This document shows, piece by piece, positions 174-60,751 of a DNA stretch of 64,000 nucleotides. Position 1 is the stretch's first letter, and the number at the start of each line of letters is the position of its first letter. Position numbers and translations under genes: made by a program. The notes beneath the pieces were generated by a model. That model was not told the origin of the DNA. It saw nothing but the letters and a program-made list of their open reading frames with translations, and did no database searches. This stretch comes from Ostreococcus lucimarinus (taxonomy: Eukaryota), in assembly GCA_000092065.1 (NCBI GenBank), contig CP000584.1. The stretch is one strand, 5' to 3'.

Positions 174-1118
174 ATGGGCGCGTGCAAGCGCGCGCTCGCG
201 CGCGCGTGCGCCGACGCCGAGCGCGCGTGCGACGCTGCGCTGCGCTGCGCCGGACCGCCGTTGTTCGCGTTCGGCGTGGCGTTGGTGCTCGGCATCGCGC
301 GCGAGACCGTGGACGCGACCGCGCGCGAACTGCGCCGACGCGCGCGAGAACGACTGGCGAACGTCGTGGCGGCGTGCGCGACGGCGTGCGCGGTGAACGC
401 GCTGTTTAATCACGCGATGTGCGCGTGGACAAAGCCGGGGACGCCGAAGGATGAACGCGCGAGACGAGCGATGGAACGGCGAGCGAACGAGACGCGACGC
501 GAGGATGGCGGCGAAACGGGGAATGGATTGCGAGAAGCGATCGAACGCGGGAGATTTTGCGAGACGTGCGATACGGTGAAGCCGGATCTGTGTCATCATT
601 GCTCGGTGTGCAAGCGATGCGTGCTGAAGATGGACCATCACTGTCCGTGGGTGATGAACTGCGTGGGGGCGAGGAATTATAGGTACTTTTTTAACTTTAT
701 AGCCTACGCCTGGGTCGGGTGCGCGTTCGCCACGATCGGAGGGGCGTTCGTGCTGTTCGGGGCGAACGAGGTCGGGCCGACGGATGCGGAGACGCTGCGA
801 CGGGTGATTTTCGTCACCGTCATGGCGACGGCGGTGCTGTGCGCGCTGGGATTCATGGTGTATTGGCAAGCGTATCTCGCCCTCACGGGGCAGACGACGA
901 TCGATTATTATAATTGGATGGATTTGAAGCAGGCGATGAAGGCGCGCGGGCTGACGCCGCCGATGAGACCGCCGTTCGATCAGGGCGCGGCGAAGAACTG
1001 GCAAGAGGCGTTCGACGAGCGCGGCAAGTTTTGGTTCCTGACCTGGGCCGCGCCTCGATTTCGCGCGCACTCGGGGTCGGGGGTGTATTACGAAGCCTAC
1101 GGACCCCGTCAGCTTTAG
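174..1118 (+). CDS. DHHC-type zinc-finger protein S-acyl (palmitoyl) transferase
   Basis: ATG at 174. Contains the motif [45 protein letters not shown] (DHHC-CRD). Hydrophobic segments flank the motif. Confidence 0.85.
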
Positions 1119-1186: not shown

Positions 1187-2164
1187 CTACTTTCGCGTCA
1201 GCGTGATGCCGATATTCTCACGCAGTTCCGCTTCGCTGACCTCGTCGTAGTCCGTGGCTTGAATTTCGACCGCAATCCCCGACAATCGCGACTTGAAGAA
1301 GTCTTTCGTCGAGGCGTACAGCATTTTATTCTTCAATCGCGCCGAATCGGGATTCCACACGACGAAGACGAGCTTACTGAACTCGCAGTCGTCCGCGTTC
1401 ACGTACTTATAATCGTAAATCGCGTATCGGCATTCACTCTCCGGTAATGCGGCGATAAAATCGTCGTAATCTCCCGAGACTTCGCCCGTGGCTGCCGTCA
1501 ACACCGAACCTTCGTTCTCCTCGACTCGAAACGTTGCCCATTGCAAACCGTTCGAGCGCATCTTTACTTTGTTAAACACCGACAAGCAATCTTCAGCCAC
1601 GGCGACGCCGCTCATGCTCTTCGCCTCCACCGCCGGCGCGCTCTTCGCCGTCGACGCAGCCGCAGGCGGCGCGGGCGGCGGCGCGGGCGGCGGCGCGGGC
1701 GGCGCCGCCGGAGCTCGAGGCGCGGGCGGCGCCGCCTTGACGCTCGCATCCTCGCCGCTCGCCGACGCGCGTTCCCCGTCCTGTACCTTTAAAGCTCGCT
1801 CCGCGTCCTCAATCTTCGTCATGAACGTCGGTTGCGCCGCCACGCTCGTCTTCACGTTGAACTTTTGCGTCGTCTCTCGCAACACCGTCGCGTCTTCAGC
1901 CGCGTCGAATCCCCGTTCCCCATCTCCGCGCAGTGCCTCGTCCAACAACTTTTGCACGTGCGCGGAAACATCCGCGGTACCGTTCTTGATCGCTTCCAGC
2001 ATCGCTCGTCGCACGCACTCCACGTCGTGCGCGCGCAGAACGCCAGATTGGTTCGCCTGGGCGATCCTGTGGGTGAACAGAAACCATCCTTTCGCGGCGT
2101 CGTAATCGCCCTGCGCGATCAAGCCGCGGTCGAGGGCGGCCTTGACTTGTTCCAACGAGTCCAT
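1187..2164 (-). CDS. ADF-H (cofilin/ADF-like actin-binding) domain protein with N-terminal extension and poly-Pro/Ala linker
   Basis: ATG confirmed at 2164 (cat on the + strand). The C-terminal ~140 aa (CRYAIYDYKY...KLVFVVWNPDSARLKNKMLYASTKDFFKSRL) matches the ADF-H fold. The middle contains a (PPAP)n linker. Confidence 0.7.
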   Translation of the reverse strand: MDSLEQVKAALDRGLIAQGDYDAAKGWFLFTHRIAQANQSGVLRAHDVECVRRAMLEAIKNGTADVSAHVQKLLDEALRGDGERGFDAAEDATVLRETTQKFNVKTSVAAQPTFMTKIEDAERALKVQDGERASASGEDASVKAAPPAPRAPAAPPAPPPAPPPAPPAAASTAKSAPAVEAKSMSGVAVAEDCLSVFNKVKMRSNGLQWATFRVEENEGSVLTAATGEVSGDYDDFIAALPESECRYAIYDYKYVNADDCEFSKLVFVVWNPDSARLKNKMLYASTKDFFKSRLSGIAVEIQATDYDEVSEAELRENIGITLTRK

Positions 2165-2335
2165 GTTCGCGTCTCGTTCGCGGTCGCGGCGCGCGGTCGC
2201 GAACGCGCGACGACGTGTGACGCGCGGATGCGACGTCGTTTGAAAAGACTGTTGGCGTCGGTTGCGCCGAGGACGCGACGCGAAGGACGCGAGCGACGCG
2301 AATCGTCATGATAAATACAACGAACGAATGCGAGA

Positions 2336-26805: not shown

Positions 26806-29189
26806 CTAGTGCATGCGGGTGACGCGACGACCCTCGGCGCGTTCGGCGACGTCGCCGCGTTGCGTCATCACGAGCAAGGCGCGGGTGACGGCCCATTCGT
26901 TGACGCCGATGCGGGACAGATCGTCGATGAGGTGACGCTTGGACATGGTGGCGCCGATAGCGAGCTTTTGACGGATCTGCGTTTCGACGACTTGGAGCTC
27001 TTCGCGCTGTTCGGCGCTGAGGACGACCATATCGGCGACGCCCGAACGCGCGGCGTCGATGGTGGACACTTCGAACAAGCGCAACGCCTCTTGCACGTGC
27101 TCTTCGGTGACGGTGGATTGAAGGCACATCTTAGCCAACGATTCAGAGATTCGCACGATGGCTTCGAGTTGACGGACGGTGATCGGGACCGCGGCGTGGC
27201 CACCCGTGCGCTTGCGCTCGCGCATTTCCTCGCGATACTTGACGTACGAATCCTCTAACATGCGCATCGCCCGCTCACCCACGCGCGGCTTGCACATCGC
27301 TCGAGCGTACTCGATGTAGCGTTTCAAGAACTGACGTTCCTTTTCTTGCTGCGGATCTGCCGCGAGCGCGAGCTCATCGCCACCGCCGGCGTGAATATTC
27401 AACACGTGATCCGCGATTTGCATGTCGCGCTCGTACACTCGTTCGTCTCTGACGATGAAAATCATGTCGAAACGGGATAAAATAGTCGTTTGCAAATCGA
27501 TGTTCTCTTGTGCCGTTTTCAAATCGTCGTACCGCCCACTTGGAGGGTTCGCCGCGGCGAGCACGGCGGTTCGACTGTTGAGCATAGTCGTGATGCCCGC
27601 CTTGGCGATGGAAATCGTTTGCTGCTCCATGGCTTCGTGGATAGCGACACGATCTTCGTCGCGCATCTTATCAAACTCATCAATGCACACGCACCCGCCG
27701 TCTGCGAGTACCATGGCACCCCCCTCGAGATAGAACTCACCATTGCTGTCTCGAATCACCGACGCCGTGAGACCGGCGGCGGACGAACCTTTACCCGACG
27801 TGTACACGCACACTGGCGCCGTTCGTTCGACAAATTTCAAGAACTGCGACTTGGCAGTGGAAGGATCACCGAGCAAAAGCACATTAACATCGCCTCTTCG
27901 CGCTGTGCCATCCGGGTGCTCCTTGCGCGTGCCCGAGAAGAGCAAGCACGTCACCGCCGCTTTGATGTCGTCGCTCCCAAAAATCGCCGGCGCCACGCGA
28001 CTGCGAAGATCTTTCACAACGTCCTTAAACGGGCGATGGGCAAAGGTTTTGAACTCAGTATGCTCGGCATCAGTGAAATGTGCGTCGCCTCTAGCACCTT
28101 CCGTCTCTTCATCGATGCCTACGACTCGCAAATAGGCGTGCTGCACGGCGACTTTCCCTCCGCCGCGGTCGCGCTTGCTACTTCCACCTGCGTTCGTCGT
28201 CTCGTATACGCCCATGAGCTTCACGCGCGTGCCTGGAACGACCGATAAAACCATTGTACGTTCGACTAATACGGTCATGTTCCGCGGCATCTCCCCCGCC
28301 GGCACACACTCTGGGTTCTCTTGCAATTTCATATTCTGTTGGTCGATGAACGAACTCTTCTCCGGAACGATGCGATACGGATCCGTCCCGCACGGATTCG
28401 CCTCCTGCCCAACCTGTGTATCCCTACCAACCTGCGCTGAACAAAACCGAGGAACGTTCGCCCCGCTGTACCCTGCACCAAGATGAACCGAGATCGTGCT
28501 CTTGCACTTCTGACACTCGAGCGCCATATGCTTTGCCTTGGTTCTCGCCTTTGACGTCGCGATGACGATACCGGGTACGTACACCAACGTCCCCACATCG
28601 CTCGAATTCAAAGTCCTCAACGGGCGCGGAATCTCTTTCGACGTAAGTTTCACTTGCACGCTCGCCCGTCCCGGCGCCCGATCTCTCGACGCGCGATCCT
28701 CCTCCTCTAAGTACGCGTCCCCATCCGCCGCCGCCAACGCGTCGCTCGGTCGCAAGCTCTCCAACACGTCCTGCACCGCCTCCTCCAATATCGGCAAGTA
28801 ATCGTTCGGTTCCATTCGCATCGCTCGCGCTAATTCCGCATCGTGCGCGATCAAATCATCAAAGCATATCTTCAAATCCTTCGGCGTCGTCGCGCGATCG
28901 AGTTCATCTCTGTATTTGAGTCGCCCGTCCGGCGCGCTCGCGTCTGGTGCGCTTCGAAAGTTTCGCAAAAAGTCCACAAACTTCGCCCGCGCTTGGCTCG
29001 GCGTCACACCTCGCGCGCGCCGCGCTTCGAGATCGGCGTCGACGACCGGTTCGGCATCGGCGTCGTCGTAGACGTAATCTTCACCTTCGGCTGCGCGCGA
29101 AAATTTTGAAATCGTCAGTCGTCGAGTCGTCGCGCGCGTCGGTAGAGCGCGGTTTCGGGGCGATCGAGCGCGCGCGACGCACCGTCCAT
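26806..29189 (-). CDS. MCM5: DNA replication licensing factor MCM5; two exons 29183..29189 (ATGGACG) and 26806..29090
   Basis: MCM box (Walker A GDPSTAKSQ, IDEFDKM, arginine finger SRFD). The zinc finger/loop DPYRIVPEKSSFIDQQNMKLQENPECVPAGEMPRNM matches MCM5. The track start at 29007 is GTG. Upstream in frame, AAEGEDYVYDDADAEPVV aligns to the MCM5 N-terminus and runs into CGCGCGCAG| with GACTGACGAT 23 nt upstream. ATG GAC G|GTGCGT lies at 29189-29177. Confidence 0.9.
29091..29182 (-). other. intron (92 nt, phase 1) following a 7-nt first exon
   Basis: GTGCGT donor, GACTGACGAT branch motif, TTTTCGCGCGCAG acceptor. Shares tgactgacgat/aaaatt blocks with the SMC2 and CDCA7-like introns. Confidence 0.6.
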
Positions 29190-29380: not shown

Positions 29381-31918
29381 CTAGTTTTGATTGATGCTCG
29401 CGCCACCGAGGGGCGAGAGCGGTGGACGCGCGGATTTGGCGCCGTCGACGCTCGGTCGACGACTTCGGAGCGCTTCGTCGCGGTTGAAACTAAAGGCGCT
29501 CGGCGTCACGGGCTCGGCGAGTAAAACGCGCGCGGACTCGCGCGCGGGAGTTTGTCCAGTCGGTACGTCCTCTCGAACCGCGGTTGAGAGCTCGGAGCTG
29601 AATTGCTCGCGGATGGACGTCAGGTCGCGAACGTGCTTGGACATGAAGTCGGCGACGCCGCGTTCAGACGTCGCGGCGACGGTGTTCGCCAAGTCTGAGA
29701 AAGCCGCGCGATCGCTCGCGAGGGACTGGTTCAACGAATCCACAGTTTCATCGCAACCGCGTCGAGAAGCGACGACTGCTGCCACTGCGTGCTCAGCGGT
29801 CGCTTCGGCCCCAGTGCGCAGCTCGTTTGCGGCTTCCATCAACATGTCTGCCTGCTTCAACATGCTCGCGCGCGCGTACTCGCTCGCCTTGCGCGCAGAC
29901 TGCTCGACGGAGCGTTGCATGTTCGCCACAGATTCCTTCAGTGCGTTCACTTCGTTTTCTTTGCGAACCATAAAATCATCTAAAACCGTCTTCATGTGTG
30001 ATCGCGACTCGCGTTCGACTTCCTGAATTCCCGCCAAGTTTCTCTCGAGCGCCTCCAACCTATCGCACATGGACGTACTCAACTCGCGAATCGCGTCCGC
30101 GTTCGAGTGCATCACACTTTCCTTGCGATTAATCTTCTCAAACAATGCCGTGGCTTCGTCTTTCGCCGCGAGTAAATCCTTCGCCATGGCGCTCGTCGCC
30201 GTGGACAAGTCGTCGTGAGTTTTTTCAAACGCGTCGAGCAAGTACTCCTTCTCGCGCACGTTCTTTTTCGCCCCACTCAACTCCACCGACGTGGTGCGCA
30301 AGTTGTCTTTAGTCTCCCCGAGCTCGACTTCAGTCTCCGCGTGTTGTTCTTTAAGCTGTAAGAAGTTCTTCTTCGTCTTGTCAAACATACGCGTCATCTT
30401 GTCGTGCTCAGCTTTCATCGACGCCAACTCGCGTTCGAGCTCCTCTGCGCGACGCCTCGTCGTCGTATGTTCGCTCTGCTCGGCGTCGTAGTTTGCCTTT
30501 GACATATAGACCCCGTTTTTCTCTCGCGTCGCCAACAAGTCGGCCTGCAAATGCTCAATGCAGCGTTGCATCTCGTTCAAAAAGTCACTCTTCGACTTCT
30601 TGCCATTCACTACGGGAGAGTTTTTAATGTTCTTCGCCCGATGCGCATACTCGAGCGTACTCAACGTTTCCTCCACCGAGTGCGAAGCCGGGGACACGGT
30701 GGCGATGATGCACGTGCGCGATTTTCCGCCCAACGCGTCACGCAGTAATCTCGTGAGCTTACTGTCCCGATACGGTATGTGCACCGACTTGTCGACCAGC
30801 GCCGTGATGACACGTCCGAGCGCGACGAGCGACGTGTTAATCGCCCCAGCCTCCTTCGCACGCTTGTCCTTGGCACCAGATCGCGAAATGTTTTCGCTTC
30901 CGGCCAAATCTACTAGATTCAGCTTGCCAGTACGCACGAACTCTTCGCCATCGGGCGACACATCGGTCCAGTGAACTGTGACGCTGAATACGCTGTGCGA
31001 CCGACTCGAGTGCGCGTTTATATCCGTCGCCTCGGTTTTTCGAAGCGCGTTCCCACGATTCAGCACCGCAAACGCCTCCTCCGTGGAACCGACGTAGACT
31101 TCTTCTAGACCTTTCACGACGACACCATTCTTACCATCCTCCATCAACGCGTGCTCGGTCGCATTCGTCCCGTCCGTCGACGCGCCGAGCAAGTCGGTGA
31201 TTTTCTCGTTGTACAGCTCGAGGTACGTCACCTTGACGCTGTGTTCCAATTCCTTACTCTTGAGATGTTCGAATATGTGCGACATCGCCCGCGGAATCAC
31301 CCCCGCTTCGCTGCTCAAGACATCGCACTCCGCATCGTGCGCCCCGCTCATCGTGTGCGTCTTCCCCGTCCCCGTCTGCCCGTACGCGAACACGGTGCAG
31401 TTCATCCCCTCGAGCACGTCCTTCACCATCGGTCTCACCGCGGAATCATACACCCGTTCCTGCGTCGACTGCGTCCCAAAAACGTCATCAAACGCAAATT
31501 CCTTACTCTCTGACGTCTCTCGCTTCCCTCCGTTCGTCGTCGACGTCCCCGCGCCGCCCCGCGCCACCGCCATCGTGCGCGCGTGCTCGTCCACCGTAAT
31601 CACTTCCGGCACTTTCTCCGCGCGTTCGTTCGCGTTCAGCGGCCTGCGCGCGTCGTTTATCGCGTCGTCAGTCTCATCATCGCTCGTCTCGATCGATCGC
31701 GATCGCGCGCGCGTCCTCCGCGCCTCCTTCGCTCGCGTTCGCGCGTCGCGCGTCGCCGTCGCTCAACGACTGCATTTGAAATTCGCGTCGACATCTTCCT
31801 CGCGCGCGTCGCATCGCGTTCGTCACCGCGCGCACCTGCATCGCAGAACGACGCTGACGCGCACGGTCGAGCCCGGTCGCCGCGCGCGATCGCCCGCGTC
31901 GGGCCGTCGCGACGCCAT
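29381..31918 (-). CDS. kinesin-5 (BimC/Eg5-like) motor protein; two exons 31836..31918 and 29381..31643
   Basis: Motor motifs GQTGTGKTHTM, NLVDLAGSENISRSGA, SLVALGRVITAL, HIPYRDSKLTRLL. Long coiled-coil tail. The track start at 31612 is GTG. Exon 1 (ATG at 31918) encodes MASRRPDAGDRARRPGSTVRVSVVLRC + AG. Joining it to G|CCGCTGAAC recreates the conserved beta1/P-loop-proximal motif VRVSVVLRCRRPLNANER. Donor GTGCGC, branch GACTGACGAC, acceptor CGCGCGCAG. Confidence 0.85.
31644..31835 (-). other. intron (192 nt, phase 2) in kinesin-5
   Basis: See above. Removing it restores the canonical kinesin N-terminal motif. Confidence 0.65.
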
Positions 31919-32116
31919 TCGCGTCGTCGTGTGCGGCGCGACTCCTTCCCCCGCGCGATAAAAGAGAGTTCGGACATTCGGCGTCGTAGAGCGTACGAAA
32001 TGATAGACTGGATAACACAATGTCACTGAATACACATAGGAGTGCGAACACACGCGACGCCGCGACGCCGCGCCGCGACGCGCGGCGCGCGGCACACGCC
32101 GGCGAGCGCGGGCGGG

Positions 32117-34447
32117 ATGCCGGTCCATCGCGACAGCGACCGCGGCGATGCCTCCATCTCGATCGCGTCGCCGTCCGCGAGCGCGCGCGCGCGGAAAGAC
32201 GTCGCGCCGCGTCGAAGGACGACGCCGCGGGCGACGCCGACGACGCGACGACCGACGACGACGACGCGCGCGCTGACGATTAAACCGTTCAAGCGCGCGC
32301 CGGCGGTGCCGGAGGAGTTCGCGAGCGATGCGCGCGCGATGCTGCGCGACGCGATCGCGGCGGTGCAAGAGAAACGACAGACGAGGGAGAGCCACGAGAC
32401 GCTGTACAGGGCGGTGGAGAATTTGTGCGTGCACAAGCGCGGCGACGACGCGTTTGAGGATTTTCGCGCGGGTGGGGACGCGCGGAGCGAAAAGGTGCTC
32501 GTAGAGCTGGAAAAGAAGAAGATAGGTGACTCCATGGTGTTTCTGAGGACGTTTGATGAGGTTTGGGGAGAGTACTGCGCGCAGGCGTTGACGCTGCGGT
32601 CAATTTTTTTGTATTTGGACCGCGCGCGCGCGAACGGGGGTGGGAAGGCGAGCACGCTTTGGGACGTTTCGTTGCGGTTGTTTCACGAACATTTAGAGAA
32701 TTCGGCGAAGAGCGTGAAGGGGAAAGTCGTCCGCGGATTGCTCGATCTCATCGAGCGCGAGAGGATGGGTGAGAAGATTGATAGAGCGCTCGCCAAGCGC
32801 GTGTTGCGCGCGCTGAGCGCGTTGGGCGTGTACGGCGAGGCGTTTGACACCGTCTTCATAGAGGCGAGCCAGGAATTTTACCGTAAAGAAGGGAACGAGT
32901 ACGGGGCACAGACGGATGTTTCTGACTATTTGAAGCACTGCGAGCGACGATTGGAGGAGGAGGCGGAGCGCTGCACGAATTACTTGGACGCCAGCACGGC
33001 GCGAGGGTTGATGCGCGTGTGTGAGCAAGGTTTAATAGAGGCACACATCGGGGATATCCTCGATAAGGGGTTCGTCGATCTCATGCGTCAGCATCGAATA
33101 GACGACTTGAAGCGATTGCACTCACTCTTGGCGCGCATGGACGGATTAGATCGCCTGAGTGCGGCTTTCGTGACGTACCTCAAGCAGCAAGGCACCGCCA
33201 TCGTCAAGGACGACGCGAACGATAAAGAAATGGTCGAACGCTTGCTGGCGATGAAAAGCGCCGTCGACGAAGTGTTGAATAAATCGTTCGGCCGCTCCGC
33301 CGCGGATGGATCGAACGATATTTTCATCAACGGCGTCAAGGAGTCGTTTGAGTCGTTCATAAACTGTCGTCAAAACGTCCCCGCAGAGCTCATAGCCAAG
33401 TACATCGATTCCAAGCTCAAGAGCGGCAACAAAGGCGCGAGCGAGGAGGAATTGGAGACAACATTAGACAAAGCGTTGACGCTGTTTAGGTACATCGTCG
33501 GTAAAGATGTGTTTGAAGGCTTTTACAAGAAGGAGCTCGCCAAGCGTTTGTTACACGCGAAGAGTGCGAGCATCGACGCAGAGAAGAGCATGATTAGCAA
33601 GTTGAAGGCGGAGTGCGGGAGCCAGTTCACGCAGCATCTCGAGGGTATGTTCAAGGATATCGATCTTAGTCGCGAGATCATGCAATCGTTCCGACAGACG
33701 TTTGACGACGAGGCGTTGACAAAGGGTATAGAGATGAACGTAAACGTCATCACGCAAGGATGCTGGCCATCGTATCCAGTTATCGACGTCAATATTCCCG
33801 AGCAACTCGCTGTTTTACAGGAAAAGTTTCAAGACTTTTACCTCGGAAAGCACTCTGGGCGACAGTTGACGTGGCAAAACTCACAAGGCCACTGCGTGCT
33901 GAAGGCGCGATTCGGTAGCGGCATGAAGGAGCTCAGCGTGTCGCTCTTTCAATGCGTCGTACTCATGTTGTTCAATGACGCCGAAAAACTTTCCTACGAG
34001 GACATAGCGTCGAAGAGTGGGCTAGAGGAGAAAGAATTAAAGCGTGCGCTGCAGTCCCTTGCATGTGCCAAGGTCCGTATCTTGAACAAAGAGCCGAAAT
34101 CTCGCGACGTCAACGCGGGCGACGTCTTCGAGGTCAACGCCGCGCTCAACGAGCGCCTGTTCCGCATCAAGGTCAATTCGATTCAAATCAAAGAAACCAC
34201 GGAGGAAAATAAGCAAACCATGGAGCGCGTGTTCCAAGACCGTCAACAGCAAGTTGACGCCGCGATCGTTCGCGTGATGAAGACCCGAAAGTCGCTCACC
34301 CACGCCTTGCTCATCTCCGAGCTCATGGCGCAGCTGAAATTTCCGACAAAGGCGAGCGATTTAAAGAAGCGCATCGAGAGTCTCATCGAGCGCGAGTACA
34401 TCGAGCGCGACCGCGAGGACGCTCAAAAGTACAACTACCTCGCGTAA
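32117..34447 (+). CDS. CUL4: cullin-4
   Basis: Cullin homology region and C-terminal winged-helix/neddylation segment IVRVMKTRKSLTHALLISELMAQLKFP...YIERDREDAQKYNYLA. The N-terminal LTIKPFKRAPAVPEEF...LYRAVENLC matches the CUL4 N-terminus. The track start at 32042 is GTG. The first ATG is at 32117. Confidence 0.85.
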   Translation: MPVHRDSDRGDASISIASPSASARARKDVAPRRRTTPRATPTTRRPTTTTRALTIKPFKRAPAVPEEFASDARAMLRDAIAAVQEKRQTRESHETLYRAVENLCVHKRGDDAFEDFRAGGDARSEKVLVELEKKKIGDSMVFLRTFDEVWGEYCAQALTLRSIFLYLDRARANGGGKASTLWDVSLRLFHEHLENSAKSVKGKVVRGLLDLIERERMGEKIDRALAKRVLRALSALGVYGEAFDTVFIEASQEFYRKEGNEYGAQTDVSDYLKHCERRLEEEAERCTNYLDASTARGLMRVCEQGLIEAHIGDILDKGFVDLMRQHRIDDLKRLHSLLARMDGLDRLSAAFVTYLKQQGTAIVKDDANDKEMVERLLAMKSAVDEVLNKSFGRSAADGSNDIFINGVKESFESFINCRQNVPAELIAKYIDSKLKSGNKGASEEELETTLDKALTLFRYIVGKDVFEGFYKKELAKRLLHAKSASIDAEKSMISKLKAECGSQFTQHLEGMFKDIDLSREIMQSFRQTFDDEALTKGIEMNVNVITQGCWPSYPVIDVNIPEQLAVLQEKFQDFYLGKHSGRQLTWQNSQGHCVLKARFGSGMKELSVSLFQCVVLMLFNDAEKLSYEDIASKSGLEEKELKRALQSLACAKVRILNKEPKSRDVNAGDVFEVNAALNERLFRIKVNSIQIKETTEENKQTMERVFQDRQQQVDAAIVRVMKTRKSLTHALLISELMAQLKFPTKASDLKKRIESLIEREYIERDREDAQKYNYLA

Positions 34448-60300: not shown

Positions 60301-60751
60301 CGACATCATTTGCTCTGGCATCGAGGCGCAGTTCTTCCAAAGTGTCAGCGCTGGCGCGGACAGTCTATCGGCTACGACGGATGAGGAATGTTTCAATGGC
60401 GCGACGGAATTCAAAGCCATGTTCGCCGACACCTTCACCGGGTATTACGACGAAAACAGCGGCGAGTGCCGACTGCGCCAACGCGGCAGCATCAACGCCG
60501 CCGGTCAATACGTCGAAATCCCCAAACCCGATGTTAACGTTGCCTTCACCACCGTCGTGCTCGGTGACAAGGATTGTGTCAGTCCCGTCTCGCTCTACGA
60601 ATACTCCGCCCGCGAGTCTTGGCTCTCGGACGCACAGATGGCTACTTTAACCAGCAAAACGTGCGCGGCGCCGGCTGACGGCGACGGCGACTTTGTCACG
60701 TCGTCGTGTTCGGCATGCGACACCGCCCGCGCGCAGGGCTGCCACTCATAG
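57386..60751 (+). CDS. large secreted/type-II Cys-rich protein of unknown function (paralog A)
   Basis: ATG at 57386. N-terminal hydrophobic signal/anchor VAVFAATAIVAYAVAGVA. The architecture continues: acidic region, Cys-rich modules, a Cys/Arg/Trp-rich block (CRCRCRRWRCRCSCHTRWCRRCW), a long D/N/K/I-rich helical region and a C-terminal beta-rich domain. Domain-by-domain similarity to the convergent gene at 60890..64000. Confidence 0.7.
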   Translation: MTSSSKGSRDGGVARRVAVFAATAIVAYAVAGVATTREGLARVVLSTTKTNDGRAPMWAKEGHAPLKAFFNDAMADAPTGLTRDERRAARALRAARKAARAGNGQSETTFTLSKSWKLHRLAKLGITEVLTDDDEEPNALSDVSFTSAQTKGAQTAFDFSEEEAEAAPQNQTEDFLADNYDAEEKIETSVDSVITSSPDAVFAAQFGNHTCVQQCADDADVAQIIGGSGCTALQANDNVFKCLNEKCSCEEAVALHETLLYVCDANEVGKNFSFVRLNQFYVDTLDDAIDECQVTDLLDSVVSSQNTYCDSNEDQDSTISNVTAAALGQGCHRGGDRPKVANCIVHKYYFARCDYWAGCRRGCNSWDYPIRWKHCGWCCHRCVNFPCGVHCRCRCRRWRCRCSCHTRWCRRCWHLPTYRPRCRKDRYYRQNKCDICSPGYRVTRNGRCQLYGWIQAIVDGINAVKQGIKYIKNVIPNTIDNIKNMFTNVKTQANTAVTKLTELADQIAQKVTDLADEVVSSVIFIKPATFLQAIESALLSCDNAQSALGSTKISAHEATSLGLLDPANSHVLEEKLGDIFGKSRSGVSPIQEWRSDDTSSLGVGQCVAHCGAGMCLPTTIPAMTYETPDHGMPFPDSIHLVKYKPDAVIVNVAANPVSVCVKMTEFSIPTTAAESIVNALVDQIKPILLAGVDEVKQWGKNAAKGMKNAAVAVEDGANDMAGFVQGIPDKLNNLVGRRRLLADATPSDQDLIDVSFALGRLMAQQNRLREKTEADVRLSLDELRARLQALPHFSHAHPTHKGAANHATANLGGNFLSDASDGLVNAMKLAFQDMKNMKMIARSTLVLDLNVEFNTDATAYRFDDLLNNGEGYTMMIDQSIPIGLGFTIAITGRLDVKMPYYFIAESAGNFAYNVASNDFWVEFGSDEGSGVLRLNDNPQVTITPSGTGQSSVSFKVSTTLRASDFKVSVCFGDIICSGIEAQFFQSVSAGADSLSATTDEECFNGATEFKAMFADTFTGYYDENSGECRLRQRGSINAAGQYVEIPKPDVNVAFTTVVLGDKDCVSPVSLYEYSARESWLSDAQMATLTSKTCAAPADGDGDFVTSSCSACDTARAQGCHS

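What the first reader, a model, noticed from the sequence alone, without database searches (positions are those of the whole stretch)
31644..31918. Kinesin-5 first exon recovered: splicing restores the conserved N-terminal motor motif
The motor ORF lacks an in-frame ATG. On the minus strand ATG(31918)...GTGCGCGTCAGCGTCGTTCTGCGATGCAG|GTGCGC is followed 192 nt later by GAGACTGACGACGCGATAAACGACGCGCGCAG|GCCGCTGAAC. The splice product reads MASRRPDAGDRARRPGSTVRVSVVLRCRRPLNANERAEKVPEVITVD, which recreates the canonical kinesin beta1 strand and RxRP motif. This independent protein-level consistency supports the intron rules used for the other genes.
Basis: partly seen in the sequence, partly recalled or inferred. 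Interest (0 to 1): 0.55.

Follow-up and report, generated by a model that had tools for sequence, protein, structure and literature searches.

The report
Kinesin-5 first exon, already annotated

Summary
On the minus strand, ATG 31918 opens an 83-nt exon (31918..31836). A 192-nt GT..AG intron follows (31835..31644), then one long exon (31643..29381).

Splicing gives ...VRVSVVLRCRPLNANERAEK....

The 781-aa product is identical to XP_001417421.1 / ABO95714.1 of Ostreococcus lucimarinus CCE9901, so the model is already public.

Independent support is strong:
- The junction ranks first of 463 alternative N-termini against a kinesin-5 profile (113.5 bits, against 80.2 for the first in-frame ATG).
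- Exon-1 residues V19, V23, R26 and C27 are invariant in 32 kinesin-5 proteins and form strand beta1 in an AlphaFold model.
- The intron carries the published O. lucimarinus signals (GTGCGCG against consensus GTGCGTG, and an exact GACTGACG).
- The same intron position and phase occur in 7 Ostreococcus lineages, two more distant relatives, Marchantia and Chlamydomonas.
- An environmental variant has identical exons but 7 substitutions and a 1-nt indel in the intron.

No transcript evidence could be obtained. The splice motifs alone are no commoner than chance in this window. Novelty: already known. Interest: low.

The parts
31916..31918 (-). Start codon ATG of the kinesin-5 gene, as in the public model
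   Evidence: An in-frame ATG further upstream at 32128 would lie inside the start of the divergent cullin coding sequence. It has no conserved counterpart in relatives.
31836..31918 (-). Exon 1, 83 nt. It encodes MASRRPDAGDRARRPGSTVRVSVVLRC plus the first two bases (AG) of Arg28: a variable N-terminal extension followed by strand beta1.
   Evidence: V19, V23, R26, C27 invariant in 32 kinesin-5 proteins; strand at residues 19-27; pLDDT about 90 for residues 21-30.
31829..31835 (-). 5' splice site GTGCGCG
   Evidence: It matches 6 of 7 positions of the published O. lucimarinus consensus GTGCGTG for introns outside chromosome 2 (PMC2483917).
31644..31835 (-). Spliceosomal intron, 192 nt, phase 2 inside the Arg codon of RCRP. 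It contains two in-frame stops.
   Evidence: The same position and phase occur in all relatives examined. Environmental contigs L009/L010 carry 7 substitutions and a 1-nt indel here, while the exons are identical.
31666..31673 (-). Branch-point motif GACTGACG. The putative branch A is at 31668, 24 nt from the 3' splice site.
   Evidence: It matches the extended consensus GACTGACG exactly. That consensus is present in 66.5% of EST-confirmed introns outside chromosome 2.
31644..31646 (-). 3' splice site CAG
29381..31643 (-). Exon 2, 2263 nt including the stop codon. It encodes the last base of Arg28 and then PLNANERAEK... to the C-terminus (residues 28-781).
30626..31843 (-). Kinesin motor domain (Pfam PF00225, residues 26-367), interrupted by the intron after residue 27
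   Evidence: E 4e-116, profile positions 1-327 of 327; Eg5/KIF11, E about 1e-110; Foldseek best hit 3HQD
29540..29563 (-). BimC-box-like tail motif PTGQTPAR (residues 722-729), containing a TP site of the Cdk1 type
   Evidence: The role of the BimC box in kinesin-5 is described in PMC8232732.

Best explanation
This is the 5' end of the single kinesin-5 (Eg5/BimC/KIF11-type) gene of Ostreococcus lucimarinus CCE9901.

The gene has two coding exons separated by one ordinary U2-type GT-AG intron of 192 nt. The intron sits in phase 2 inside the Arg codon of the conserved RCRP (RxRP) motif. Exon 1 supplies the start codon, a short variable N-terminal extension and strand beta1 of the motor core. Exon 2 supplies the rest of the motor, the stalk and a tail with a BimC-box-like Cdk site.

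Splicing is needed to make a functional motor. The unspliced message hits stop codons, and the next in-frame ATG would yield a motor without beta1 and RxRP.

The intron is old. The same position and phase occur in other Ostreococcus lineages, in more distant relatives, in Chlamydomonas and in the liverwort Marchantia. It is the only ancestral intron this streamlined gene has kept.

Shown here: the sequence anatomy, identity to the public model, the protein-level fit, and conservation of position. Inferred: that the intron is actually removed in mRNA, and where transcription starts.
For: - **Identity to the public model.** The spliced product is identical to XP_001417421.1 / ABO95714.1.
- **Best junction.** It ranks first of 463 candidates at 113.5 bits. 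The next distinct junction scores 104.7, constructs with exon 2 only about 95, and the first in-frame ATG 80.2.
- **Conserved residues.** V19, V23, R26, C27, R28 and P29 are invariant across 32 kinesin-5 proteins. HMMER aligns VRVSVVLRCRPLNANER to Eg5 NIQVVVRCRPFNLAER.
- **Structure.** AlphaFold places residues 19-27 in a strand, with pLDDT about 90 for residues 21-30. The best structural match is the Eg5 motor 3HQD.
- **Splice signals.** GTGCGCG and GACTGACG, with the branch A 24 nt from the CAG, match the published O. lucimarinus consensus.
- **Ostreococcus relatives.** All 7 lineages keep ...VSVVLRC plus a split Arg codon (AG|G, AG|A or CG|A), a GT donor, a CTGAC/CTGAT/TTGAC branch 24-38 nt from the acceptor, and [CT]AG. 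Intron lengths run from 142 to 216 nt. Lengths are not a multiple of 3 in 4 of the 7 lineages (L001, L006, L007, L008) and in variant contigs L009/L010 of the window's own lineage. Read-through is blocked by stops or a shifted frame in every lineage except L002.
- **More distant relatives.** The position and phase are the same in two loci at 50% identity, in Marchantia and in Chlamydomonas schloesseri.
- **Population variant.** The 2346 nt of exons are identical, while the intron has 7 substitutions and a 1-nt indel.
- **Synteny.** The order cullin, kinesin, MCM5 is conserved in the Ostreococcus loci whose flanks were read. The two more distant loci keep only the cullin neighbour.
Against: - No transcript or junction read was seen. 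Exact and degenerate junction probes found nothing in the JGI metagenome contigs. That collection may hold little or no RNA.
- The splice-signal pattern alone is no more frequent than chance in the window.
- The donor differs from the consensus at position +6 (C instead of T).
- The choice of ATG 31918 over the in-frame ATG at 32128 is inferred, because the transcription start is unknown.
- In one relative (L002) the intron is 165 nt with no stop, so read-through is not formally blocked there.
Confidence: 0.95

Rival explanations
1. There is no intron. Translation starts inside the long ORF, either at the first in-frame ATG (31573, MAVARGG...) or at a non-ATG codon such as GTG 31612. Prokaryote-style gene callers assume the latter for metagenome copies.
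For: An uninterrupted 743-aa ORF runs from 31612 to 29381. All close database representatives, P0001 to P0014, were called in this way.
Against: - Such products lack beta1 and the RxRP motif, which are invariant in kinesin-5.
- They score 80-89 bits against 113.5 for the spliced form.
- The upstream VSVVLRC coding segment is conserved in every relative despite a diverged intron. A non-coding stretch would not show that.
- Those gene calls come from tools that do not model introns.
Confidence: 0.02
2. The intron is real but a different donor or acceptor is used. One example is the GT at 31826, which would insert Cys-Ala (RCRCARPLN). Others are internal AG acceptors at 31683 or 31716.
For: These alternatives keep the reading frame and were enumerated. 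GT and AG dinucleotides are abundant in the region.
Against: - They score 9-18 bits lower.
- They break the invariant RCRP spacing.
- They lack a consensus donor or a branch motif at the right distance.
- They are not conserved in relatives, whose boundaries all fall at the same codon position.
Confidence: 0.02
3. The junction is as proposed, but translation starts further upstream at the in-frame ATG 32128. That would add about 70 residues to the N-terminus.
For: The frame is open from 32128 to the donor. The product scores almost the same (112.2 bits).
Against: - ATG 32128 lies beyond the ATG of the divergently transcribed cullin gene (32117 on the plus strand), so the transcript would have to start inside that gene.
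- The extension is Arg-rich, low-complexity sequence with no counterpart in relatives. Their N-terminal extensions ahead of the conserved VSVVLRC segment are short, about 8 to 27 residues counted from the nearest ATG, and unrelated in sequence.
- The public model uses 31918.
Confidence: 0.03

Closest known systems
XP_001417421.1 / ABO95714.1 / UniRef100_A4RVG6, 'predicted protein' or 'Kinesin-like protein', Ostreococcus lucimarinus CCE9901
   Same: The finding therefore reproduces the existing annotation.
   Different: Nothing differs at the protein level.
Kinesin-5 family: human Eg5/KIF11, Drosophila Klp61F, Aspergillus BimC, plant KIN-5/KRP125
   Same: - An N-terminal motor domain whose best sequence and fold matches are Eg5.
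- The beta1/RxRP motif V.V.V.LRCRP.
- An insertion aligned to Eg5 loop L5.
- A C-terminal PTGxTPx[RK] BimC-box-like motif.
   Different: The protein is only 781 aa, against roughly 1000-1100 aa for most homologues, so the stalk and tail are shorter. Bipolar tetramer formation and mitotic function were not tested.
Typical O. lucimarinus spliceosomal introns outside chromosome 2 (Irimia and Roy 2008, PMC2483917)
   Same: The donor GTGCGCG is close to the consensus GTGCGTG. The extended branch motif GACTGACG is an exact match, lies near the 3' splice site, and is followed by a CAG acceptor.
   Different: Position +6 of the donor is C, not T. Which chromosome the window comes from was not established.
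First intron of kinesin-5 genes in Marchantia polymorpha and Chlamydomonas schloesseri (public gene models)
   Same: The intron position and phase are identical...LLRCR with the codon split AG|G before P. These look like orthologous introns inherited from an early green-lineage ancestor.
   Different: Those genes have further introns, for example after FDK/FDR, which Ostreococcus has lost. The intron sequences themselves are unrelated. The Chloropicon primus gene has no introns at all.

Membership tests
Kinesin-5 (Eg5/BimC/KIF11) | An N-terminal kinesin motor domain that is closest to kinesin-5 among the kinesin families | tested here: met
   - Pfam Kinesin covers the full profile at E 4e-116.
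- The best PDB sequence hits are KIF11/Eg5 at 373 bits, against 316 bits for KIF3B, the best hit outside kinesin-5.
- The best fold match is Eg5 3HQD.
- The named database hits are KIN-5 and KIF11 proteins.
- No formal phylogeny was made.
Kinesin-5 (Eg5/BimC/KIF11) | A complete motor N-terminus: strand beta1 followed by RxRP (V.V.V..RCRP) | tested here: met
   This holds only after splicing. V19, V23, R26, C27, R28 and P29 are invariant in 32 sequences. Residues 19-27 are a strand in the AlphaFold model. The alignment to Eg5 starts at query residue 10.
Kinesin-5 (Eg5/BimC/KIF11) | A BimC box with a Cdk1 TP site in the C-terminal tail | tested here: met
   PTGQTPAR occupies residues 722-729. 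The same PTGxTPx[RK]-type motif lies in the last quarter of 87 of 144 homologues scanned. The definition comes from PMC8232732. Phosphorylation itself was not tested.
Kinesin-5 (Eg5/BimC/KIF11) | A central coiled-coil stalk with a bipolar assembly (BASS) region that forms a homotetramer | not tested
   The region between the motor and the tail aligns with homologues over 70-90% of the query, but no coiled-coil or oligomer analysis was run. The protein is about 25% shorter than usual.
U2-type GT-AG spliceosomal intron (O. lucimarinus type outside chromosome 2) | GT...AG termini with the lineage-specific 5' consensus GTGCGTG | tested here: met
   GTGCGCG...CAG matches 6 of the 7 donor positions.
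U2-type GT-AG spliceosomal intron (O. lucimarinus type outside chromosome 2) | A branch-point motif ACTGAC/GACTGACG a short distance upstream of the 3' splice site | tested here: met
   An exact GACTGACG lies at 31673..31666, with the branch A 24 nt from the acceptor.
U2-type GT-AG spliceosomal intron (O. lucimarinus type outside chromosome 2) | The intron is absent from mature mRNA | not testable with these tools
   No transcript data are held. Junction probes found 0 matches in the metagenome contigs. The exact 781-aa protein is on record for one contig only, of 930,724 bases.
U2-type GT-AG spliceosomal intron (O. lucimarinus type outside chromosome 2) | Non-coding behaviour: the position is conserved while sequence and length are free to change | tested here: met
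   - Intron lengths run from 142 to 216 nt in the Ostreococcus lineages and are about 162-165 nt in L011/L012, read.
- Lengths are not a multiple of 3 in 4 of the 7 lineages and in variant contigs L009/L010; stops or a shifted frame block read-through in 6 of 7.
- Intron identity to the window is 55-65% with 37-58 gapped columns. The last 26 bases of exon 1 align to the window without gaps at 65-92% identity.
- Within the population, the intron shows 8 differences against 0 in 2346 nt of exon.

The most novel reading that the evidence does not exclude
The intron that splits the Arg codon of RCRP appears to be an ancestral green-lineage intron, shared with Chlamydomonas and Marchantia. Ostreococcus has kept it as the only intron of an otherwise streamlined kinesin-5 gene. 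It may therefore be retained for a function, such as intron-dependent expression or regulated intron retention that gates production of the mitotic motor during the cell cycle, and not by mere chance. My evidence shows the shared position but says nothing about function.
Probability: 0.12. Interest if true: 0.35.

Novelty: already known. Interest (0 to 1): 0.08.

Why it matters
For the gene itself it matters little, because the model was already public.

It has some use as a calibration point.

It also shows the limits of that reasoning. The signals occur at chance frequency in the window, so they need coding or comparative support before being applied to other genes.

Two by-products may help annotators:
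- Metagenome protein catalogues systematically truncate or mis-extend this kinesin, because their gene callers ignore the intron.
- The intron position appears conserved across green algae and land plants.

Tried and rejected
- **Junction probes.** I searched the JGI metagenome contigs with an exact 30-mer and a degenerate 29-mer across the spliced junction. Both returned 0 matches. This is uninformative, because the collection is probably DNA only.
- **Spliced transcripts in the protein collection.** All close cluster representatives, and the longer members P0130, P0131 and P0159, are unspliced prokaryote-style calls that start in the intron or read through it. None is a transcript.
- **Contig L001.** This 3.5-kb Logan contig looked like a possible mRNA, but it contains the intron, so it is genomic.
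- **Splice motifs as evidence.** I tested whether the motifs alone are statistically enriched. They are not: 14 observed against 13.4 expected. I did not use them as evidence on their own.
- **Alternative models.** Unspliced starts, alternative GT/AG pairs and an upstream ATG were enumerated, scored and rejected.
- **Literature.** Searches for a description of the Ostreococcus kinesin-5 found nothing specific. One kinesin-5 review (PMC4034379) is not held.
- **Whether the intron is universal in green algae.** It is not. The Chloropicon primus gene has no introns.
Full report
**What is there.**
I read the region on the minus strand and rebuilt the proposed model.
- The ATG is at 31918.
- Exon 1 is 31918..31836 (83 nt) and ends ...CTGCGATGCAG.
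- The intron is 31835..31644, exactly 192 nt. It starts GTGCGCGCGG and ends ...GAGACTGACGACGCGATAAACGACGCGCGCAG.
- Exon 2 starts GCCGCTGAAC at 31643 and runs as one open frame to the stop at 29381.

Exon 1 and exon 2 happen to be in the same frame, but the unspliced frame meets two stop codons inside the intron. After the second stop, the first in-frame ATG is at 31573, 24 codons into exon 2.

The one error is in the peptide.

**Identity of the gene and of the window.**
The 781-aa spliced product is already in the public collection as an exact sequence: ABO95714.1 / XP_001417421.1 / UniRef100_A4RVG6, 'predicted protein' or 'Kinesin-like protein' of Ostreococcus lucimarinus CCE9901, on a 930,724-base contig.

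Evidence that this is a kinesin-5:
- Pfam places a complete kinesin motor domain at residues 26-367 (E 4e-116, profile positions 1-327 of 327).
- The best solved relatives by sequence are human Eg5/KIF11 (about 373 bits, E about 1e-110), then Drosophila Klp61F. The best match outside kinesin-5, KIF3B, scores 316 bits.
- Named database relatives are plant KIN-5A/C/D and KIF11 proteins at 40-55% identity.
- The tail carries PTGQTPAR at residues 722-729 (29563..29540). The same PTGxTPx[RK] pattern lies near the C-terminus of 87 of the 144 homologues of 700 aa or more that I scanned. It corresponds to the BimC box with its Cdk1 site described for kinesin-5 (PMC8232732).
- The protein is about a quarter shorter than most homologues.

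**Does the splice restore a proper motor N-terminus?**
I built an HMM from the N-terminal region (beta1 to the P-loop) of 33 kinesin-5 proteins from plants and other green algae, none of them from the Ostreococcus/Micromonas group. I then scored every possible N-terminus: 456 frame-preserving combinations of ATG, GT and AG, plus 7 unspliced ATG/GTG/CTG starts.

| Candidate N-terminus | Score (bits) |
|---|---|
| Proposed junction with ATG 31918 | 113.5 |
| Same junction with upstream ATG 32128 | 112.2 |
| Best different junction (donor 31826, inserts Cys-Ala) | 104.7 |
| Constructs with exon 2 sequence only | about 95 |
| First in-frame ATG (31573) | 80.2 |

Further support:
- In a 32-sequence alignment, exon-1 residues V19, V23, R26 and C27, the split Arg28, and P29 are invariant.
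- HMMER aligns VRVSVVLRCRPLNANER with Eg5 NIQVVVRCRPFNLAER at high posterior probability.
- An AlphaFold2 model of residues 1-405 (mean pLDDT 73, pTM 0.76) puts residues 19-27 in a beta strand, with mean pLDDT 90 for residues 21-30. Residues 1-12 are disordered.
- Foldseek's best PDB match is the Eg5 motor 3HQD (E 2e-36).

From general knowledge of kinesin structure, beta1 is part of the central sheet, and the RxRP motif lies next to the nucleotide pocket. A product starting at 31573 would therefore lack core elements.

**The intron as an intron.**
Irimia and Roy (PMC2483917) report the signals of EST-confirmed O. lucimarinus introns outside chromosome 2. The consensus donor is the unusual GTGCGTG. 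ACTGAC is present in 87% of these introns, and the extended GACTGACG in 66.5%.

This intron has GTGCGCG (6 of 7 positions) and an exact GACTGACG at 31673..31666. The branch A lies 24 nt from the CAG acceptor.

These signals are weak evidence on their own. The combined pattern occurs 14 times in the 64-kb window, against 13.4 +/- 4.3 in first-order Markov simulations. GACTGACG is only modestly enriched, 10 occurrences against 4.3 expected.

**Comparative evidence.**
I fetched the DNA of relatives found by the protein search.

Seven distinct Ostreococcus-type lineages (the window, with L009/L010 as variants of the same lineage, L001, L002, L003-5, L006, L007 and L008) have products 68-99% identical to the window protein. 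All share the following:
- an upstream segment encoding ...(R/G)VSVVLRC;
- two bases of an Arg codon, then a GT donor (GTGCG in six lineages, GTACG in one);
- an intron of 142-216 nt;
- a CTGAC, CTGAT or TTGAC motif 24-38 nt before a [CT]AG acceptor;
- the third base of the Arg codon, followed by CCN-YTN-AAY/AGC.

The split Arg codon itself varies (AG|G, AG|A, CG|A), so the boundary is conserved while synonymous change occurs across it. Intron lengths are not a multiple of three in four of the seven lineages (L001, L006, L007, L008), nor in L009/L010. Read-through is blocked by stops or a shifted frame in every lineage except L002.

The last 26 bases of exon 1 align to the window without gaps at 65-92% identity. 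The introns align at 55-65% identity with 37-58 gapped columns.

The gene order cullin (divergent), kinesin, MCM5 is kept in the Ostreococcus loci whose flanks were read.

Two more distant loci, L011 and L012, have products 44-50% identical to the window protein. They keep the cullin neighbour but not MCM5, and are probably other members of the same algal order, though I did not identify them. Both have ...VKVILRC, then CG|GTGCGTC...CAG|A or |T, then CCC ATG AAC. That is the same position and phase.

In the public gene models of more distant green organisms:
- Marchantia polymorpha has ...VLLRCR split AG|GTTTGT...TTTACAG|G before PFSEDE.
- Chlamydomonas schloesseri has ...VLLRCR split AG|GTCGGC...GCACAG|G before PLSDKE.
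- Both also share a second intron after FDK/FDR, which Ostreococcus lacks.
- The Chloropicon primus gene is a continuous 3192-nt coding sequence with no introns.

The simplest reading is one ancestral intron of the green lineage. Ostreococcus kept it while losing the others, and Chloropicon lost it too.

**Population evidence.**
Environmental contigs L009 and L010 come from two JGI metagenomes. Over 83 + 2263 nt of exon they are identical to the window. Inside the intron they differ by 7 substitutions and a 1-nt insertion, all in its 5' half, which makes it 193 nt and shifts the frame.

If differences fell uniformly over the 2538 nt compared, the chance that all would land in the intron is about 1e-9 for 8 independent events. 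It is about 3e-5 if the clustered changes are counted as 4 events (my arithmetic). This is how non-coding DNA flanked by constrained exons behaves.

**What is not shown.**
I found no transcript. An exact 30-mer and a degenerate 29-mer spanning the spliced junction gave no match in the JGI metagenome contigs, and that collection may contain no RNA.

All close protein representatives in the metagenome catalogues were called without introns:
- they start at GTG or ATG codons inside the intron or in exon 2 (MPEVITVD..., MCRPLN..., MWCFASTRRPLN...);
- or they read through the intron (P0009, 858 aa);
- or they come from variant alleles with indels (P0130, P0131).

The start codon is also inferred. 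An in-frame ATG at 32128 would add about 70 Arg-rich residues, but it lies beyond the ATG of the divergent cullin gene (32117 on the plus strand). It has no conserved counterpart in relatives.

**Verdict.**

It is already known, because the public annotation of O. lucimarinus contains exactly this model. The rules still need coding or comparative evidence, because the motifs occur at chance frequency here.

Interest is low. The deep conservation of the intron position, and the systematic mis-calling of this gene in metagenome catalogues, are minor by-products.

Noticed in passing
window 29091..29189, minus strand (upstream of the MCM5 ORF 29007..26806): The neighbouring MCM5 gene seems to begin with a 7-nt coding mini-exon, ATGGACG (29189..29183). 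A 92-nt intron follows (GTGCGTCG...GACTGACG...CGCAG, 29182..29091), in frame with the MCM ORF, giving MDAEGEDYVYDD.... The same ATGGA[CA]G mini-exon plus intron is present in the relatives checked (L002, L003, L006, L007, L008) and in variant contig L009. The exact 763-aa spliced protein is not in the public collection, so the public model may differ at its N-terminus.
   Followed up: partly
P0001-P0014, P0130, P0131, P0159 (database proteins); loci L001-L010: Metagenome and Logan protein catalogues mis-call this kinesin throughout. Some start at GTG or ATG codons inside the intron or in exon 2. Others read through the intron, for example P0009 at 858 aa with a 55-residue insertion between RCR and RPLN.
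   Followed up: yes
L009 and L010 positions 2142..2334, against window 31835..31644: Environmental O. lucimarinus-like contigs are identical to the window over all 2346 coding bases. Within the 5' half of the intron they carry 7 substitutions and a 1-nt indel. The 3' 117 nt, including the branch motif, are identical.
   Followed up: yes
window 31919..32116: Only about 198 bp separate the kinesin ATG (31918, minus strand) from the first ATG of the divergently oriented cullin gene (32117, plus strand). The stretch includes a patch of lower G+C around 31950..32040, which could be a shared bidirectional promoter. An in-frame minus-strand ATG at 32128 overlaps the start of the cullin gene.
   Followed up: partly
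L014 (Marchantia) about 860..1045 and L015 (Chlamydomonas schloesseri) about 590..740: Both genes share a second intron position, phase 0 after FDK/FDR and before VFGP/VFSP. It is absent from the Ostreococcus gene. The Chlamydomonas copy appears to use a GC donor (AGG|GCGAGT).
   Followed up: no
window 29381..31918 (whole gene): The Ostreococcus-type kinesin-5 proteins are about 735-790 aa, against roughly 1000-1100 aa for plant and other green-algal homologues. They nonetheless keep the motor and the BimC-like tail motif, so the stalk must be much shorter.
   Followed up: no
whole window, both strands: The pattern GTGCG...ACTGAC...AG occurs 14 times, against 13.4 expected by chance. GACTGACG occurs 10 times against 4.3 expected. 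Candidate sites not examined lie at about 13988, 16701, 24513, 27330, 37685, 45147, 49663, 50849 and 58882 on the plus strand, and at 60583, 21876 and 6158 on the minus strand.
   Followed up: no
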